Assembly: GCF_009914755.1 (NCBI RefSeq)
Contig: NC_060938.1
From: the human T2T-CHM13v2.0 reference genome, Homo sapiens
Strand: one strand, 5' to 3'
DNA length: 64,000 bases
Shown here: in pieces, positions 6,706 through 57,944 of the stretch
How the letters are laid out: each line of letters opens with the position of its first letter
How positions within the stretch are numbered: position 1 is the first letter of the stretch
Program-made: the position numbers and the translations under genes
The notes under the pieces: generated by a model
The model's database searches: none
What the model was told of the DNA's origin: nothing
Seen by the model: only the letters and a program-made list of their open reading frames with translations

Positions 6706-7407
6706 AATAATCGAATTGTAATTGCAAGTTTGAGTAGTCCTTCAAAAATACATCTCATTCCTGACAGGATAAAACAAGTTTTTAAAATTATATTATATTC
6801 AGATTCACTAGGGAACAGTTGGAGCCAGGAAATAATTCAGGATTCAGCCGAAATTATAGCAAATAATAAAAACTCTAAAACAATCATCAGGGTTGGAATC
6901 TAATAGCATATGCCATAATTTTCTTTTGGAACATAAATTTTCTCTCTAGTCCATCATTTTATCAAAGACAAATCATAGTAGGACCAATTTGTATGCAAAA
7001 TAAGTTTTAGTCTTATCATACCTGGCCTGATTATTTCCATAAAGTGCATCAAGAATATTTATTGGCCATACGGACTTCTTAAAATTGGCTTTGTTGGAAA
7101 TTTTTAATAAGGAATCTTAGACTTTTAAGAGCCTTGAAGCTAGCCAAGTCAAAGATTTGCATCAGACTATGTCTGTAATAATTTTTTTAACCTACATTTT
7201 TTAAATAATACTTTAAGTTATGGGGTACATTTGCAGAATGTGCAGGTTTGTTACATAGGTATATATGTTCTGTGGTGGTTTGCTGCACCCATCAACCCAT
7301 CACCTATATTAGGTATTTCTCCTAATGCTATCCCTCCCCCTGCCCCCACCCCCCAACAGGCCCCAGTGTGTGAAGTTCCCCTCCCTGTGTCCATGTGTTC
7401 CCATTGT

Positions 7408-10400
7408 TCAACTCCCACTTATGAGTGAGAATATGTGGTGTTTGGTTTTCTGTTCTTGTGTTAGTTTACTGACAGTGATGGTTTCCAGCTTCATCCATGT
7501 CCCTGCAAAGGACATGAACTCATCCTTTTTTATGGCTGCATAGTATTCCATGGTGTGTATGTGCCACATTTTCTTTATTCAGTCTATCATTGATGGGCAT
7601 TTGGGTTGGTTCCAAGTCTTTGTTATTGTGAACAGTCCTGCAATAAACATACATGTGCATGTGTCTTTGTAGTAGAATGATTTATAATCCTTTGGGTATA
7701 TACCCAGTAATGGGATTGCTGGGCCAAATGGTAATTCTAGTTCTAGATCCTTGAGGAATAGCCACACTGTCTTCCACAATGGTTGAACTAATTTACACTC
7801 CCACCAACAGTGTAAAAGCCTTCCTATTTCTCCACACCCTCTCCAGTATCTGTTGTTTCCTGACTCTTTAATGATTGCCATTCTAACTGGCATGAGATGG
7901 TATCTCACTGTAGTTTTGATTTGCATTTCTCTAATGACTAGTGATGATGAACTTTTTTTCATAAGTTTGTTGGTTGCATAATTGTCCTCTTTTGAGAAGT
8001 GTCTGTTCACATCCTCCGCCCACTTTTCAATGAGGTTGTTTTTTCTTGTAAATTTGTTTAAGTTCTTTGTAGATTCTGGATATTAGCTGTTTGTCAGATG
8101 GATAGATTGCAAAAATTTTCTCCCATTTTGTAGGTTGCCCGTTCACTCTGATAGTTTCTTTTGCTGTCCAGAAGCTCTCTATTTTAATTAGGTCCCATTT
8201 GTCAATTTTGGCTTTTGTTGCCTTTGTTTTTGGTGTTTTAGTCATGAAGTCTTTGCCCATGCCTATGCCATGAATGGTATTGCCTAGGTTTTCCTCTAGG
8301 GTTTTTATGGCTTTAGGTCTTATGTTTAAGTCTTTAATCCACCTTGAGTTAATTTTTGTATAAGGTGTAAGAAAGGGATCCAGTTTCAGCTTTCTGCCTA
8401 TGGCTAGCCCGTTTTCCCAACACCATTTATTAAATAGGGAATCCTTTCCCCAGTGCTTGTTTTTCTCAGGTTTGTCAAAGATCAGACGGTTGTAGATGTG
8501 TGGTGTTATTTCTGAGGCCTCTTTTCTGTTCCTTTGATCTATATCTCTGTTTTGGTACCAGTACCATGCTGTTTTGGTTACCGTAGCTTGTATTATAGTT
8601 TGAAGTCAGGTAGCATGATGCTTCCAGCTTTGTTCTTTTTGGTTAGGATTGTCTTGGCTGTTCGGGCTCTTTTTTGATTCCACATGAAATTTAAAGTATG
8701 TTTTTCCAATTCCGTGAAGAAAGTCAATGGTAGTTTAATGGGGATGGCAGTGAATCTATAAATTACTTTGGGCAGTATGGCCATTTTCACGATACTGATT
8801 CTTCCTATCTATGAGCATGGAATGATTTTCCATTTGTTTGTGTCCTCTCTTATTTCCTTGAGGAGTGGTTTGTAGTTCTCCTTGAAGAGGTCCTTCACAT
8901 CCTTGTAAGTTGTATTCCTAGGTATTTCATTCTTTTTATAGCAATGGTGAATGGGAGTTCACTCACAGTTTGGCTCTCTGTTTGTCTGTTATTGCTGTAT
9001 AAGAGTGCTTGTGATTTTTGCACATTGATTTTGTATCCTGAAACTTTGCTGAAGTTGCTTATCAGCTTAAGGAGATTTTGGGCTGAGATGATGGGGTTTT
9101 CTAAATATACAATCATGTCATCTGCAAACAGAGACCATTCGACTTCCTCTTTTCCTAATTGAATACCCTTTATTTCTTTCTCTTGCCTGATTGCCCTGGC
9201 CAGAACTTCCAATACTATGTTGAATAGGGGTAGTGAGAGAGGGCATCCTTGTCTTGTGCTGATTTTCAAAGGGAATGCTTCCAGTTTTTGCACATTCAGT
9301 ATGTTATTGGTTGTGGGTTTGTCATAAATAGCACTTATTATTTTGAGATACGTTCCATCAATACCAGTTTATTGAGAGTTTTTAGCATGAAGGGCTGTTG
9401 AATTTTGTCAAAGGCCCTTTCTGCATCTATTGAGATAATCATGTAGTTTTTGTCATTGGTTCCCTTTATATGATAGATTACAATTATTGATTTGCATATG
9501 TTGAACCATCCTTGCATCCCAGGGATGAAGCCGACTTGATTATGGTGTACAAGCTTTTTGATGTGCTGCTGGATTCAGTTTTCCAGTATTTTATTCAGGA
9601 TTTCTGCATCGATATTCATCAGGGATATTGGTCTAAAATTTTCTTTTATTGTTGTGTCCCTGCGAGGTTTTGGTATCAAGGTGATGCTGACCTCATAAAA
9701 TGAGTTAGGGAGGATTCTCTCTTTTTCTATTGTTTGGAATAGTTTCAGAAGGAATGATACCAGCTCCTCTTTGTACCTCTCATAGAATTCAGCTGTGAAT
9801 CTGTCTGGTCCTGGACATTTTTTGGTTGGTAGGCTCTAATTAATGTCTCAATTTCAGAACTTGTTACTGGTCTATTCAGGAATTTGACTTCTTCCTGGTT
9901 TAGTCTTGGTAGTATTCGCTGATGATAATTTGTATTTCTGTGGGATCAGTTGTGATATCCCCTTAATCATTTTTTATTGCATCTATTTGATTCTTCTCTC
10001 TTTTCTTCTTCATTAGTCTGGCTAGTGGTCTGTTTTGTTGATCTTCGAAAAAAAACAGCTCCTGGATTCATTGATTTTTTGAAGGGTTTTTCGTGTCTCT
10101 GTCTCCTTAAATTCTGCTCTGATCTTATTTATGCCTTGTCTTCTGCTAGCTTTTGAATTTGTTTGTCCTTGCTTCTCCAGTTCTTTTAATTTTGATGTTA
10201 GGGTGTCAATTTTAGATCTTTCCTGCTTTCTCTTGTGGTCATTTAGTGCTATAAATTTCCCTCTACACACTGTTTTAAATGTGTCCCAGAGATTCTGGGA
10301 CGTTGTGTCTTTGTTCTCATTGGTTTCAAAGAACATCTTTATTTCTGCCTTCATTTCGTTATTTACCCAGTAGTCATTCAGGAGCAGGTTGCCCAGTTTC

Positions 10401-11134
10401 CATGTAGTTGTGAGGTTTTGAGTGAGTTTCTTAATCCTGCATACTAATTTGAATGCATTGTGGTCTGAGAGACTGTTTGTTATGATTTCCGTTCTTTTGC
10501 ATTTCCTGAGGAGTGTTTTACTTCCAATTATGTGGTCAATTTTAGAATAAGTGCAATGTGGTGCTGAGAAGAAGGTATATTCTGTTGATTTGGGGTGGAG
10601 AGTTCTGTAGATATCTTTTAGGTCCACTTGGTCCAGAGCTGAGTTCAAGTCCTGGATATGCTTGTTAATTTTCCGTCTCATTGATCTAATATTGACAGTG
10701 GAGTGTTAAAGTCTCCCACTATTATTGTGTGGGAGTCTAAGTCTCTTTGTAGGTCTTTAAGAACTTGCTTTATGAATCTGAGAGCTCCTGTATTGGGTGC
10801 ATATATGTTTAGGATAGTTAGCTCTTCTTGTTTCATCGATCCCTTTACCATTATGTAATGCCCTTCTTTGTCTCTTTTGATCTTTCTTGGCTTAAGGTCT
10901 GTTTTATCAGAAACTAAGATTGCAACCCCTGCCTTTTGTTGCTTTCCACTTGCTTGGTAAATGTTCCTCCATCCCTTTATTTTGAGCCTATGTGTATGAG
11001 ATGGGTCTCCTGAATGCAGCATATTGATGGGTCTTGACTCTATCCAATTTGCCAGTCTGTGTTTTTCAACTGGGGACATATAGCTCATTTACATTTAAGG
11101 TTAATATTGTTATGTGTGAATTTGATCCTGTCAT
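7408..11134 (-). pseudogene. Disrupted L1 ORF2 (endonuclease and reverse transcriptase)
   Basis: ORF fragments 10678 (NIYAPN, GDFNTPL), 10022 (SDH), 8895 (RQGCPLS, FADDM), 8593, 8027, 7579. Confidence 0.93.
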
Positions 11135-11197
11135 TATGATACTAGCTGGTTATGTTGCTCATTAGTTGATGAAGTTTTTTCATAGTGTCAATGGTCT

Positions 11198-12219
11198 TTA
11201 TAATTTGGTATGTTTTTGCAGTGGCTGTTACCAGTTGTTCCTTTCCGTGTTTAGTGCTTCCTTCAGGAGCTCTTGTAAGGCAGGCGTGGTGGTGACAATA
11301 TCTCTCAGCATTTGCTTGTAAAGGATTTTATTTCTCCTTCAATTATGAAGCTTAGTTTGGCTGGATATGAAATTCTGGCTTGAAAATTCTTTTCTTTAGG
11401 AATGTTGTGTATTGGCCCCCACTCTCTTCTGGCTTGTAGGCTTTCTGCCAAGAGATCCACTGTTAGTCTGATGGGCTTCCCTTTGTGGGTAACTCAACCT
11501 TTCTCTCTGGCTGCCCTTAATATGTTCTCCTTCATTTCAACCTTGGTGAATCTGATGATTTTGTGTCTTGGGGTTGCTCTTCTTGAGAAGTGTCTTAGTG
11601 GTGTTCTCTGTATTTCCTGAATTTGAATGTTGGCCTGTCTTGCTAGGTTGGGGAAGTTCTCCTGGATAATATCCTGCAGAGTGTTTTCCAACTTGGTTCC
11701 ATTCTCTCTGTCACTTACAGGTACACCAGTCAAACGTAGATTCAGTCTTTTAACATAGTCCTCTATTTCTTGGAGGCTTTGTTCATTTCTTTTCACTCTT
11801 TTTTCTTTAATCTTGTCTTCTTGCTTTATTTCATTGAGTTGATCTTCAATCTCTGATATCCTTTCTCCTGCTTGATTGATTCAGCTATTGATACTTGTGT
11901 ATGCTTCATGAAGTTCTTGTGCTGGGTTTTTCAGCTCCATCAGGTCATTTATGTTCTTCTCTAAACTGGTTATTCTAGTTAACAATTCATTTAACCTTTT
12001 TTTTCAGGTTCTTAGCTTCCTTGCATTGAGTTAGAACATGCTCCTTTAGCTCGGAGGAGTTTGTTATTACCCGCCTTCTGAAGCCTACTTCTGTCAATTC
12101 GTCAAACTCATTGTCTGTCCAGTTTTGTTCCCTTGCTGGCGGGGAGTTGTGATCTTCTGGAGGAGAAGATGCATTCTGGCTTTTGGAGTTTTCAGCCTTT
12201 TTGCACTGGTTTCTCCCAT
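11198..12219 (-). pseudogene. Disrupted L1 ORF1
   Basis: Fragment 11494-11796 (ENFPNLARQANIQIQEIQRTP); ATG at 12219. Confidence 0.9.
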
Positions 12220-13265
12220 CTTTGTGGATTTATCTACCTTTGGTCTTTGATGTTGGTGCTGTTGATACTATTCCTTTCTGTTTGTTAGTTTTCCTTCTAA
12301 CAGTCAGGTCCCTCTGCTGCAGGTTTGCTCGAGTTTGCTGGAGGTCCACTCCAGACCCTTTTTGCCTGGGTATCACCAGTGGAGGCTCAGTTGGAAATGC
12401 ATGAACCACCTGCCTTCTGTGTTGATCTCACTAGGTGCCGCAGGCCAGAGCTCTTCCTACTCAGACATCTTGCCAGCTCTCCTGTAATACTTTTATGAAT
12501 GAGTGTAGTCCTCTCTTCTCAAGGTCCCCAAATATCTTGAGGTTCCTAGGCCCGTCAGAAAGTGACATTCTTTACTTCTTACCAGAAGGACAGTGAATAT
12601 AAAGGACCCTTGTAGACAAGACACCAAGCCAGTCATTATAAGGGGCTTTGTATTGGTGCTATAAAGTCAACCTCAATTCCTTAAAGTGGTCTGGTTGTAT
12701 CTGCCATTCGAGTTAAAGCCTTGATAAAACAAACAGTGTCTCCAATTGAATCCTGTTATCAAAAACAGATTCATATTGAAATTATGCAAATAATTATATT
12801 GCCATAATTTAAGAATGCTCACTAATGGCTTCTGAATTCTGGAGTAATCAGTTAGAGAGACAGATAAATGGCTCAAATTTTTGTTCACAATGTAGTTTAT
12901 CTAATGTATTGTGAGTTAAAAATAGCTGAAAAGAAAAAAAAATTCTTGACTTTGGAAAACAAAACATAAAGAGAATCAACAATGTTTCCAATGAAAAGGC
13001 CATGAATAAAATCTTTTTCTTCTTTTATGAGTTCATTCCCATGTAACTAAATCTTGTTCTGTTTGATTTCAAATAGCAATTCTCATTCAGTTTTTTTGTG
13101 TTTTGCTTGATTTCAATTAGAAGTTCTCATTCAGCTTTTCAGAGTCCTGGAAGATTTTCCTAGTCCAATGGTATGATCCCCAAAGTTATCAGAAACCATA
13201 TTTAAGAGAACTTGTCAGAGTCCTTTCCATTAAAAGTAATTTAGATGATAGCTGATTGTAAAGGC

Positions 13266-50676: not shown

Positions 50677-52038
50677 GAAATTGTAGGAAAGTAAAATTTC
50701 TTATCTTATAGCTATAGCATGTTAACATGTTGGTACCTATCCTCCTGAGATGTAAAATTTTACATGGATAGATGTGTACATTTACAGATGTACACAAAGA
50801 GAAACATATTCTGTAGGCTCTTTGTTTTTCCGCAGTTTCATTCAACACTATCTGGTTTATATGGATGATTACATATATAATGCTAGGATGAAAGTTCTTC
50901 TCTATAACTTTGAAACTTCCTTGATTATCAACCCTTGGTATATTCTTAGAATAGGATTTTATTTTAGAATTAAGATCCTTGTTTCAGGACTCTAGACTGT
51001 TAACACACAGAGCCAATAATTATTCAGAATGGTTGGGTTAGTTCACATTCCCACAGATGAGACATCAAATGTCCAGGCTGCACAGCCTCATTAACACTAG
51101 ATTTTCTGGACATTTTATATAGTATTTCATCTGATATAGAAAGTAGAATTCTAATTTAATTATGGTTGTTAATTTATTTTTATCTTTTTAGTCATTATGA
51201 AAATGTTTAACTATATGTAAAGCTAGGAAAGAGTTTTATTTTTTAAGTTAGTACTTCAGAAATATGTGCGATACTTAATTTTTAAAAATTAACTCTAAAA
51301 GAATCTTGAAATGTCTGTTCAATGAAATAGGATATAAATACTGGTCACATTAGTGAAAAATATTTGTTTAAAATTAAAATATCTGCAGCAATCCTGTAGA
51401 TATTAATAATTTTTAAAGAATGACATCTTCAAAATATAAATGTTCTAAACTTATAATCAGTTAAATATGTCTCTATTAATACATATAGATACATATATCT
51501 AAATAAATTTGAAGACTTCAAATTCCAGGTACAATATAATTTTTTTTCTATCCTGTGATTTGTCATTCAGTATTTTGTAATTTGAACAGAAATATTTTGC
51601 CCTAACCACATGTCTGTCTTTTCTCTTACCTAGAAATGTTCTTTTATGCAAAATTGTTTTAAAGGTCAGTTTGCATGTTTGAAAGCATCTTGTAGAATGT
51701 TACATAATATATTGCATATTTGGTTACATTGTTTTAACTGTGTAAATATGGTTTAAATCTATGATGCACTTTAGTGCTGATCATGATGCAAAGCAAATTT
51801 ATCTGTATAAAAGTCTCCTGTTATTTTTTTATTATTATATTTTAAGTTTTAGGGTACATGTGCACAACGTGCAGGTTTGTTAGATATGTGTACATGGGCC
51901 ATGTTGGTGTGCTGCACCCATTAACTCGTCATTTAACACTAGGTATATCTCCTAATGCTATCCTTCCCCCCTCCCCCCACTCCACAACTGTCCTCAGTGT
52001 GTGATGTTCCCCTTCCTGTATCCATGTTTTCTCATTGT

Positions 52039-55857
<3,819 letters not shown>

Positions 55858-55920
55858 TATGATGTTAGCTGGTTATTTTCCTCGTTAGTTGATGAAGTTT
55901 CTTCCTAGCCTTGATGGTCT

Positions 55921-56935
55921 TTACAATTTGGCATGTTTTTGCAGTGGCTGGTACCAGTTGTTCCTTTCCATGTTTAGTGCTTCCTTCAGGAGCTCTTTTA
56001 GGGCAGGCCTGGTTGTGACAAAATCTCTCAGCATTTGCTTGTCTGTGGAGTATATTATTTCTCCTTCACTTATGAAGCTTCGTTTGGCTGGATATGAAAT
56101 TCTGGGTTGAAAATTCTTTTCTTTAAGAATGTTGAATATTGGCCCCCACTCTCTTCTGGCTTGTAGAATTTCTGAGGAGAGATCAGCAGTTAGTCTGATG
56201 GGCTTCCTATTGTGGGTAACCTGACCTTTCTCTCTGGCTGCCTTTAAAATTTTTTCATTCATTTCAACTTTGGTGAATCAGACAATTATTTGTCTTGGAG
56301 TTGTTCTTCTCGAGGAGTATCTTTGTGGCATTCTCTGTATTTCCTGAATTTGTATGTTGGCCTGCCTTACTAGATTGGGGAAGTTCTCCTGGATAATATC
56401 CTGCAGAGTGTTTTCCAACTTGGTTCCATTCTCCCCGTCACTTTTAGGTACACCAATTAGACATACATTTGGTCTTTTCACATAGTCCCATATTTCTTGG
56501 AGGCTTTGTTCATTTCTTCTATTCCTTTTTCCCTAAACTTCTCTTCATGCTTTATTTCATTCATTTCATCTTCCATCGCTGATACTCTTTCTTCCAGTTG
56601 ATCACATCGGGTACTGAGGCTTATGCATTTGTCATGTCGTAGTTGTGCCATGGTTTTCAGCTCCATCTGGTCCTTTAAGGACTTTTCTGCATTTGTTTTT
56701 CTAGTTATCCATTCGTCTAATTTTTTTTTAAAGTTTTTAACTTCTTTGCCATTGGTTCGAACTTCCTCCTTTAGTTCAGAGTACTTTGATCTTCTGAAGC
56801 CTTCCTCTCTCAACTCGCCAAAGTCATACTCCGTCCAGCTTTGTTCCACTGCTGGTGAGGAGCTGCATTCCTTTGCAGGAGGAGAGGCACTCTGATTTTT
56901 AGAGTTTCCAGTTTTTCTGCTCTGTTTTTTCCCAT
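55921..56935 (-). pseudogene. Disrupted L1 ORF1
   Basis: ATG at 56935; fragments 56478, 56278, 55921 (..YQPLQKHAKL). Confidence 0.93.
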
Positions 56936-57944
56936 CTTTGTGGTTTTATCTTCCTTTGGTCCTGGATGATGGTGACATACAGATGGGGTTTTGGTGTGGA
57001 TGTCCTTTCTGTTTGTTAGTTTTCCTTCTAACAGTCAGGACCCTCAGCTGCAGGTCTGTTGGAGTTTACTAGAGATCTACTCCAGACACTATTTGCCTGG
57101 GTATCAGCAGCAGTGGCTGCAGAACAATGGATATTGGTGAACTGCAAATGCTGCTGCCTGATCGTTCCTCTGGAAGTTTTGACTCAGAGGGGTACCCGGC
57201 CATGTGAGATGTCAGTCTGCCCCTACTGGGGGGTGCCTCCCAGTTAGGCTACTCAGGGGTCAGGAACCCACTTGAGGAGGCTGTCTGCCCATTCTCAGAT
57301 CTCAAGCTGCATGCTGGGAGAAACACTACTCTCTTCAAAGCTGTCAGACAGGGGCATGTAAGTCTGCAGAGGATATTGCCGTCTTTTGTTGGTCTGTGCC
57401 CTGCCCCCAGAGGTGGAGCCTACAGAGGCAGGCTGGCCTCCTTGAGCTGTGGTGGGCTCCACCCAGTTCGAACTTCCTGGCTGCTTTGTTTACTTACTCA
57501 AGCCTGAGCAATGGCAGGCGCCCCTCCCCCAGCCCCACTGTAACTTTGCAGTTTGATCTCAGACTTCTGTGCTAGCAAACAGCGAGGCTCCGTGGGTGTA
57601 GGATCCTCCAAGCCAGGTGCTGGATATAATCTCCTGGTGTGCCATTTGATAAGCCTGTTGGAAAAGCGCAGTATTAGGGTGGGAGCGACCTGATTTTCCA
57701 GGTTCCATCTGTCACCCCTTTCTTTGACTAGGAAAGGGAATTCCCTGACCCATTGTGCTTCCCAAGTGAGGTGATGCCTTGCCCTGCTTTGGCTCATGCA
57801 TGGTGCGCTGCACCCACTGTCCAGCACTCCCCATTGAGATGAACCTGGTACCTCAGTTGGAAATGCAGTTATCACCTGTCTTCTGCATCACTCATGCTGG
57901 GAGCTGTAGACTGGAGCTGTTCCTATTCGACCATGTTGCCTCCA
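56936..57944 (-). promoter_or_regulatory. L1 5'UTR (internal sense and antisense promoter region)
   Basis: Complete ~1 kb UTR, CpG-depleted; YY1 site mutated (AACATGGTCG vs AAGATGGCCG). Confidence 0.75.

What the first reader, a model, noticed from the sequence alone, without database searches (positions are those of the whole stretch)
12370..12481. Retrotransposed spliced L1 mRNA using an acceptor absent from modern L1HS
Seen: the minus strand reads GCATTTCCAACTGAG|CCTCCACTGGTGATACCCAGG (junction 12386/12385), about 95 nt from the element's 5' end. The intact L1 in this window has CAACTGAG|GTACC at 57852/57851 and TGTTCTGCAG|CCACTG at 57117/57116. The missing piece therefore corresponds exactly to a GT-AG intron (735 nt in that copy). 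TSD, tail and the ORF1 ATG are retained. Established: spliced integrated retrotransposed elements (SpIREs) use the +97 donor and lose most of the promoter. Inference: this acceptor lies in the ~129 bp UTR segment later lost from L1PA3-L1HS, so it is not one of the L1HS-numbered acceptors and may define an older splice class.
Basis: partly seen in the sequence, partly recalled or inferred. Interest (0 to 1): 0.8.

Follow-up and report, generated by a model that had tools for sequence, protein, structure and literature searches.

The report
Spliced L1 copy of a published class
This is a dead L1 retrotransposon copied from a spliced L1 RNA, so it lacks most of its promoter; the splice type was described in 2018, but it looks several times commoner and older than the published list shows.

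Summary
On the minus strand, an L1 spanning 12481..7182 joins its first 96 nt (…TTCCAACTGAG) directly to CCTCCACTGGTGATACCCAGG at 12386|12385. It has a target-site duplication, an A tail and the ORF1 ATG.

The missing piece is bounded by GT…AG in unspliced L1s. The same junction occurs at 74 L1 places in this genome, which fall into 47 different flank groups, against 0-1 control hits. [quoted passage not shown]

The class is not new, though. Larson et al. 2018 (PMC5860796) named it SpIRE97/853 and listed nine loci (PA4-PA6) whose printed sequences carry this junction.

What goes beyond the paper:
- 47 independent loci rather than 9.
- 14 of the 47, including this one, belong to an older L1 type, probably L1PA7/8 (inferred). 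Its intron is about 1.0 kb, not 735 nt.
- None of the nine published loci is of that older type.
- This locus exists in 28 copies spread by segmental duplication.

Verdict: a new member of a known kind, of modest interest.

The parts
7182..12481 (-). Whole spliced L1 (SpIRE), 5300 nt. Coding capacity is lost.
   Evidence: blastn against the window's other L1. Coordinates. Every reading frame has 72-115 stops, and the longest ORF is 219 aa. A Pfam RVT_1 remnant lies at 8895..9293 (E 2.6e-15), and a weak endonuclease match, below the curated cut-off, lies at 10678..11088.
12386..12481 (-). Exon 1: the first 96 nt of the L1 5'UTR, ending in the donor exon sequence TTCCAACTGAG.
   Evidence: Unspliced copies continue with GTACC at this point.
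12385..12386 (-). Splice junction GAG|CC.
   Evidence: The same junction is present in the passages shown from the published SpIRE97/853 sequences.
12220..12385 (-). Exon 2 start: the remainder of the 5'UTR downstream of the acceptor. It carries a family-private gap of about 56 nt near 12265.
   Evidence: Alignment with spliced and unspliced copies. Unspliced copies have ...TTCTGCAG immediately before CCTCC.
12217..12219 (-). ORF1 ATG, retained.
12482..12493 (-). 5' copy of the target-site duplication, AAAGTATTACAG.
   Evidence: It is an exact 12 nt in paralogs L031 and L035.
7173..7181 (-). 3' copy of the target-site duplication (TTATTACAG, one mismatch in this copy), preceded by a short A tail at 7182..7188.
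51825..57940 (-). Comparison L1 with an unspliced 5'UTR. The donor GT is at 57851-57850 and the acceptor AG at 57118-57117. It is a younger type that resembles the PA5-labelled copies.

Best explanation
An L1 of an older primate subfamily was transcribed from its own 5'UTR promoter. The spliceosome then removed about 1 kb of the 5'UTR. It used the donor at position 96/97 (GAG|GTACC, the RUNX3-site donor of Larson et al.) and the acceptor TTCTGCAG|CCTCC. That acceptor lies in the UTR segment later deleted from L1PA2/L1HS. The spliced mRNA was reverse-transcribed and inserted by target-primed reverse transcription, leaving a 12-nt target-site duplication and an A tail. The product is a SpIRE of the published 97/853 class. 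It lacks most of the internal promoter and has since decayed.

The insertion happened once, in an ancestral duplicon. Segmental duplication then carried it to 28 places: the acrocentric short arms, pericentromeric chr1, chr3 and chr9, and chrY. The window holds one of those copies.

Shown here: the junction, the GT/AG bounds, recurrence at independent loci, the insertion hallmarks, and identity with the published junction. Inferred: the subfamily (L1PA7/8-like), the age, and that this event was a fresh splicing rather than a copy of an older SpIRE.
For: Junction and anatomy.

Recurrence: the 37-mer with up to 3 mismatches gives 73 hits against 0 control. One further L1 hit was found only by the 16-mer. 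The other 3 of the 54 16-mer hits that the 37-mer missed are chance matches in Alu. Clustering of the upstream flanks gives 47 independent L1 groups.

Insertion hallmarks in other members: of the 10 independent members fetched at full length, 4 have an exact TSD of 9-18 nt right after the L1 3' end and tail (L032, L039, L040, L042). Three more (L033, L034, L041) have imperfect ones judged by eye.

GT/AG bounds in the element's own subfamily: 5 unspliced reference copies were examined. Four have GT after the donor exon, and 4 have ...CAG immediately before CCTCC, at +1092 to +1148. Genome-wide, CAG|CCTCCACTGGTGATACCCAGG with up to 1 mismatch has 1758 hits against 0 control. The unspliced donor 24-mer has 9595 hits against 6 control.

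Acceptor inside the segment absent from young L1s: (1393 short-form copies).

Published class: Larson 2018 section 16, S1 Table sheet 5 and S1 Data passages. The printed sequences of loci -1, -3, -5, -6 and -9 match my loci L089, L010, L092, L007 and L022. The other four published loci match by chromosome and nearby coordinate only.

Segmental duplication: 28 places share the flank and the TSD. Nine paralogs are 93-95.6% identical to the window copy over 7 kb, flanks included.
Against: One of the 5 unspliced references (L099) has AT instead of GT at the donor, and no acceptor was found in it at the threshold used. This is most simply decay of that copy.

The subfamily name rests on relative divergence from only 4 copies of the older type, and no RepeatMasker or Dfam library was available.

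For 3 of the 10 full-length members I found no TSD. L036 is the published 3'-truncated locus. For L037 and L038 the L1 3' end was not found within the stretch fetched.

Nothing here shows RNA. That splicing occurs at this acceptor rests on Larson's RT-PCR with an L1PA4 insert, not on the older UTR.

Counts come from one assembly, and the search tool states that its counts for repeats are lower bounds.
Confidence: 0.93

Rival explanations
1. A full-length L1 inserted first, and about 1 kb of its 5'UTR was later lost by a genomic deletion at a short AG microhomology.
For: A 2-nt AG overlap exists at the junction; the two blastn pieces overlap by 2 nt. All 28 paralogs carry the deletion, so it happened before the duplications. 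Taken alone, that would fit either model.
Against: The identical junction occurs in 47 groups with unrelated flanks, spread over three sequence types. It lies exactly at GT...AG of unspliced copies. It equals a junction obtained by RT-PCR from a reporter (Larson 2018, section 16). None of the 28 paralogs has an intact UTR.
Confidence: 0.01
2. The element was not made by a fresh splicing event. It is a daughter of an older SpIRE that was transcribed, for example from a neighbouring promoter, and retrotransposed again. Part of the class would then be a small lineage of spliced elements.
For: The 14 older-type members share sequence features, and 5 of them form one clade in the 1.4-kb tree. L012 and L023 share a 5' end variant and a gap of about 25 nt. 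A 2025 preprint (10.1101/2025.02.02.635956, passages seen) reports a 97/622-type SpIRE that regained mobility through a host promoter.
Against: The features shared by the older-type SpIREs are also found in unspliced copies of that type. The clade therefore reflects the subfamily, not a spliced master. The ATTGCTGG 5' end occurs in 41 other copies. Larson 2018 found reduced promoter activity and reduced retrotransposition for intra-UTR SpIREs (abstract). No joint tree with enough unspliced copies was built, so this reading has not been properly tested.
Confidence: 0.08
3. The window copy is the original insertion site, and the other 27 places are copies of it.
For: It carries the TSD and the tail.
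Against: All 28 places carry the same flank, and the three paralogs whose TSDs were examined (L031, L035, L044) carry it too. The window copy has a mismatch in its 3' TSD that L031 and L035 lack, and nothing singles it out. A priori the chance is 1 in 28.
Confidence: 0.05

Closest known systems
SpIRE97/853 (Larson et al. 2018, PLoS Biol 16:e2003067, PMC5860796)
   Same: Same donor, the GAG|GT of the RUNX3 site at position 97/98. Same acceptor, A851G852 in the 129-bp segment. The junction string TTCCAACTGAG|CCTCCACTGGTGATACCCAGG is identical in 3 of the 5 published SpIRE97/853 sequences shown (loci -3, -5, -6); loci -1 and -9 differ from it at 3 and 2 positions. Same hallmarks: TSD, A tail and loss of most of the promoter.
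   Different: The paper lists nine loci, all PA4-PA6, found by BLAT at more than 95% identity to an L1RP+PA4 probe. This copy is not among them. It belongs to an older sequence type with a 5' end ...GCTGGCAAGATGG, a UTR intron of about 1.0 kb, and pairwise divergence of 12.3% against 7.7% for the PA6-labelled members. It also sits in T2T-only short-arm sequence.
SpIRE97/622 (Larson et al. 2018)
   Same: Same donor and the same kind of intra-5'UTR splice. It is the commonest published class, with 116 loci in PA1-PA6.
   Different: The acceptor is A620G621, far upstream of the one used here. The paper reports no member older than L1PA6.
SpIRE97/790 (Belancio et al. 2006, as cited by Larson et al. 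2018)
   Same: Same donor. The acceptor lies only about 65 nt downstream of the one used here, by L1PA3 numbering (A916G917).
   Different: It is used only after the 129-bp deletion and is found only in L1PA1 and L1PA2.
Processed pseudogenes
   Same: A spliced RNA copied into DNA by the L1 machinery, with a TSD and an A tail.
   Different: Here the template is L1's own mRNA, and the 'intron' is part of its promoter.

Membership tests
SpIRE (spliced integrated retrotransposed element) | L1 sequence on both sides of the junction, collinear with a full-length L1 apart from one internal gap. | tested here: met
   Two collinear blastn pieces against the window's unspliced L1. RT remnant. Alignment with other copies.
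SpIRE (spliced integrated retrotransposed element) | The gap is bounded by GT and AG in unspliced copies. | tested here: met
   Window copy B. In the element's own subfamily, 4 of 5 references have GT and 4 of 5 have AG. There are 1758 genome hits for CAG followed by the exon 2 start.
SpIRE (spliced integrated retrotransposed element) | Hallmarks of L1 endonuclease-dependent insertion: TSD and an A tail at the 3' end. | tested here: met
   A 12-nt TSD AAAGTATTACAG and a short A run. The TSD is exact in paralogs L031 and L035.
SpIRE (spliced integrated retrotransposed element) | The same junction recurs at independent insertion sites. | tested here: met
   47 flank groups. 0-1 control hits.
SpIRE97/853 class | Donor G98U99 joined to acceptor A851G852 inside the 129-bp segment that L1PA2 and L1PA1 lack. 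| tested here: met
   The junction string matches the published S1 Data sequences. The acceptor lies at offset 83 of a 140-nt interval that is 12 nt long in 1393 young-type copies.
SpIRE97/853 class | Subfamily range L1PA4-L1PA6, as published. | tested here: not met
   The window copy clusters with an older type: a separate clade, 12.3% against 7.7-8.9% pairwise divergence, and a different 5' end. This is a range reported for nine loci, not a defining rule. The subfamily name itself is inferred.
SpIRE97/853 class | The splice is actually made on L1 RNA. | not testable with these tools
   Larson 2018 detected it by RT-PCR from a reporter carrying the L1PA4 129-bp insert (section 16). There is no RNA evidence for the older UTR.

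The most novel reading that the evidence does not exclude
Splicing from the +97 donor to the acceptor in the ZNF93-target segment was a long-standing and fairly common by-product of L1 expression. It was already in use in an L1PA7/8-like subfamily, roughly 1.5 times older than L1PA6. It left at least 47 independent insertions, about five times the nine catalogued. That would make it the second commonest SpIRE class and the first SpIRE record older than L1PA6. A bolder extension has no evidence here: that the 129-bp deletion was also favoured because it removed this acceptor.
Probability: 0.7. Interest if true: 0.4.

Novelty: new member of a known kind. Interest (0 to 1): 0.3.

Why it matters
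SpIREs are fossils of L1 RNA processing. They show which cryptic splice sites the host spliceosome used on L1 transcripts in past epochs. They also inflate counts of 'full-length' L1s with copies that were promoter-dead on arrival.

The published catalogue of the 97/853 class has nine loci, all PA4-PA6. It appears to have been limited by its search threshold of more than 95% identity to a young probe. A fuller count of at least 47 loci, 14 of them of an older type, pushes this splice back in time. It is relevant to the published idea that changes in the 5'UTR driven by KRAB zinc-finger pressure re-routed L1 splicing.

For this particular locus, the practical point is for annotation. It is a dead, spliced L1 that was multiplied 28 times by segmental duplication on the acrocentric short arms.

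Tried and rejected
1. Post-insertion deletion: rejected because the junction recurs at unrelated flanks.

I then fetched 400-nt stretches for 38 hits and 1.9-kb stretches for 6 published loci. TSDs were therefore examined only in the 10 independent members, the window copy and 3 paralogs held at 7 kb. The tree was built on 1.4 kb from 25 copies. L026, L010 and L007 were dropped as truncated or rearranged. L022, L015 and L023 kept poorly aligned stretches and were left out of the distance table.

3. Naming the subfamily from Khan et al. 2006: the paper is not held, and no repeat library is available. Only a relative age is given.

4. A crude TSD finder gave spurious 8-9-nt matches for 6 of the 10 independent loci. 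I replaced it by inspecting the L1 3' ends.

5. The idea of a SpIRE 'master' behind L012 and L023: their shared 5' end variant turned out to be common, with 41 other copies, so there is no support. The printed matches were cut at 80 letters, so the junction state of those 41 copies was not seen.

6. Search for a later catalogue: searches for SpIRE terms, 'SpIREs'+'L1PA7' and 'SpIREs'+'T2T' found none in the held library. Passages of PMC7110667 and of the 2025 preprint only cite Larson.

Full report
**Observation.** Read on the minus strand, the window holds gcatttccaactgag|cctccactggtgatacccagg, with the join between 12386 and 12385. A second L1 in the window (57940..51825, minus strand) has caactgag|gtacc at 57852|57851 and ttctgcag|ccactg at 57117|57116, so 735 nt separate the two points there. 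In blastn the first element aligns to the second in two collinear pieces: 12474..12386 to 57940..57852, and 12387..7197 to 57118..51825 at 83.9% identity.

**Anatomy of the element.**
- It spans 12481..7182 on the minus strand, 5300 nt.
- Exon 1 is 96 nt (12481..12386).
- The ORF1 ATG is at 12219..12217.
- The 3' end has the usual L1 terminus, a short A run (7188..7182) and then TTATTACAG (7181..7173).
- The 5' flank ends in AAAGTATTACAG (12493..12482). In two paralogous copies (L031, L035) the two TSD copies are an exact 12 nt.
- All frames are full of stops (72-115 per frame), and the longest ORF is 219 aa.
- A reverse-transcriptase remnant is recognisable (RVT_1, E 2.6e-15).

**Is it splicing?** The junction recurs across the genome of the window (T2T-CHM13, searchable as G000).

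| Junction probe | Hits | Reversed control |
|---|---|---|
| 16-mer, exact | 54 | 1 |
| 37-mer, up to 3 mismatches | 73 | 0 |
| 24-mer, up to 3 mismatches | 80 | 0 |

I fetched sequence around all 73 hits of the 37-mer and around the 3 further 16-mer hits not already in hand; the fourth, an Alu hit, was already held as L004. Three of the 16-mer hits are chance matches inside Alu elements. The other 74 places are L1 5' ends joined to the same downstream sequence.

Clustering the 80 nt upstream of each L1 gives 47 groups with unrelated flanks. One of them, L079, is 5'-truncated within exon 1. Ten independent members were held at full length:
- Four show an exact TSD of 9-18 nt directly after the L1 3' end and tail (L032, L039, L040, L042).
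- Three show imperfect TSDs judged by eye (L033, L034, L041).
- One is the published 3'-truncated locus (L036).
- For two (L037, L038) the L1 3' end was not found in the stretch fetched.

A junction that recurs at dozens of unrelated sites, exactly at GT...AG, cannot come from local deletions.

**The boundaries in the right subfamily.** The window element has a 5' end of the form ...GCTGGCAAGATGG. The published members and most others have ...GTTCCAAGATGG. A 47-nt probe for the first form finds 255 copies at up to 2 mismatches.

I examined five unspliced copies (L095, L096, L097, L099, L100). Four have GT after the donor exon; L099 has AT. Four have ...CAG directly before CCTCC, at +1092 to +1148 from the probe start; in L099 none was found at the threshold used. 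The intron removed from this element's source was therefore about 1000-1056 nt, not 735.

Genome-wide, CAG followed by the exon 2 start has 1758 hits at up to 1 mismatch. The unspliced donor 24-mer has 9595 hits at up to 3 mismatches. The spliced form is thus a rare by-product, roughly 0.5% when about 50 independent events are set against about 9600 donors. The tool states that such counts are lower bounds.

**Where the acceptor lies.** In the window's unspliced copy, two anchors lie 140 nt apart, and the acceptor G is at offset 83 of that interval. The same anchors lie 12 nt apart in 1393 copies, and every one of the 100 listed shows the short form.

**Comparison with what is in print.**
- Larson et al. 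2018 (PMC5860796) inserted the 129-bp L1PA4 segment into a young 5'UTR. By RT-PCR they detected a product joining G98U99 to a new acceptor, A851G852, inside that segment.
- S1 Table sheet 5 lists the nine loci, all PA5, PA6 or 'PA4-PA6'.
- Passages of S1 Data show their sequences with the junction TTCCAACTGAG|CCTCCACTGGTGATACCCAGG or close variants.
- Five of the nine (-1, -3, -5, -6, -9) match my loci L089, L010, L092, L007 and L022 letter for letter in the stretches shown. The other four match hits on the same chromosome at nearby coordinates.

**What goes beyond the paper.**
- The paper's search required more than 95% identity to a probe built from L1RP plus the PA4 insert (Methods).
- Here 47 independent groups are seen, so 38 are not in the published list. 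I could not check which of them are present in GRCh38.
- By three sequence markers (5' end, AGAAGG against AGAAGA in exon 1, and CAGCAG...GCAGCAG against CAACAG...GCAGCTG after the junction), 14 of the 47 belong to the window's type. None of the nine published loci does.
- Over 1.4 kb downstream of the junction, 5 of these form their own clade.
- Mean pairwise divergence among 4 of them is 12.3%. It is 7.7% among the 4 PA6-labelled members, 8.9% among 13 PA6-like copies and 8.3% among 5 PA5-like copies. Transversions alone give 4.6% against 2.6-3.4%.
- The older-type SpIREs share their markers with unspliced copies of the same 5' type.
- With L1PA6 put at about 27 My (Larson), a factor of about 1.4-1.6 suggests 37-43 My. 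I read this as L1PA7/L1PA8-like. That name is an inference: Khan et al. 2006 is not held and no repeat library was available.
- Larson states that the donor is conserved from L1PA1 to L1PA10, so an older SpIRE is expected in principle.
- Searches of the held library for a later catalogue found none.

**The locus itself.**
- The window copy shares its flank and TSD with 27 other places: chr1:127.9 Mb, chr3:75.85 and 95.6 Mb, chr9:76.76 Mb, chrY:11.45 Mb, and the short arms of chr13, 14, 15, 21 and 22.
- Nine of these, compared over 7 kb including flanks, are 93-95.6% identical to the window copy.
- All 28 carry the junction, and none has an intact UTR.
- The insertion therefore happened once, before the duplications, and the window copy most likely arrived by segmental duplication.

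**Open point.** I cannot tell whether each member reflects a fresh splicing event or whether some are daughters of an already spliced element. L012 and L023 share a 5' variant and a gap of about 25 nt, but that 5' variant is common among other copies (41 hits). A joint tree with many unspliced copies would decide this.

**Verdict.** The class is already known as SpIRE97/853. This copy is a new and older member, and the class appears about five times larger than catalogued. Interest is modest.

Noticed in passing
window 7182-12493 and loci L001, L008, L024-L031, L035, L043-L050, L058, L061, L070-L078, L081, L083-L087: One SpIRE insertion, with its flanks and TSD, is present at 28 genomic places: the short arms of chr13, 14, 15, 21 and 22, chr1:127.9 Mb, chr3:75.85 and 95.6 Mb, chr9:76.76 Mb and chrY:11.45 Mb. 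Nine paralogs are 93-95.6% identical to the window copy over 7 kb, so the duplicon is larger than 7 kb and the duplications are old.
   Followed up: partly
window about 12265 (minus strand), also L031: The window family has a gap of about 56 nt in the 5'UTR remainder, between GGAATAGTATC and AACAGCACCAAC, relative to all other copies aligned. Paralog L031 shares it, so it predates the duplications.
   Followed up: partly
window 51825-57940 (minus strand): A second full-length but coding-dead L1 (longest ORF 293 aa). Its 5'UTR is unspliced and still holds the segment missing from young L1s. In the stretch after the acceptor it resembles the PA5-labelled copies.
   Followed up: partly
L012 (chr5:98.2 Mb) and L023 (chr12:48.2 Mb): Two independent SpIREs share the 5' end ATTGCTGG and a gap of about 25 nt in the UTR remainder. 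This could mean a common source element, but the 5' variant is common (41 other copies), so it proves nothing yet.
   Followed up: partly
L095, L096, L097, L100: Unspliced L1s with the ...GCTGGCAAGATGG 5' end have the acceptor about 1.1 kb from the 5' end. That is about 280 nt further than in the window's PA5-like copy, so this older 5'UTR is markedly longer.
   Followed up: no
genome hits chr4:103845868, chr9:15572921, chr15:79445756: Three more likely members of the class appear only with the 24-mer at 3 mismatches. Their flanks were not fetched, so they are not counted among the 47. Three further new hits of that search (chr2:263499, chr4:25578937, chr7:154523630) look like chance or doubtful matches.
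   Followed up: no
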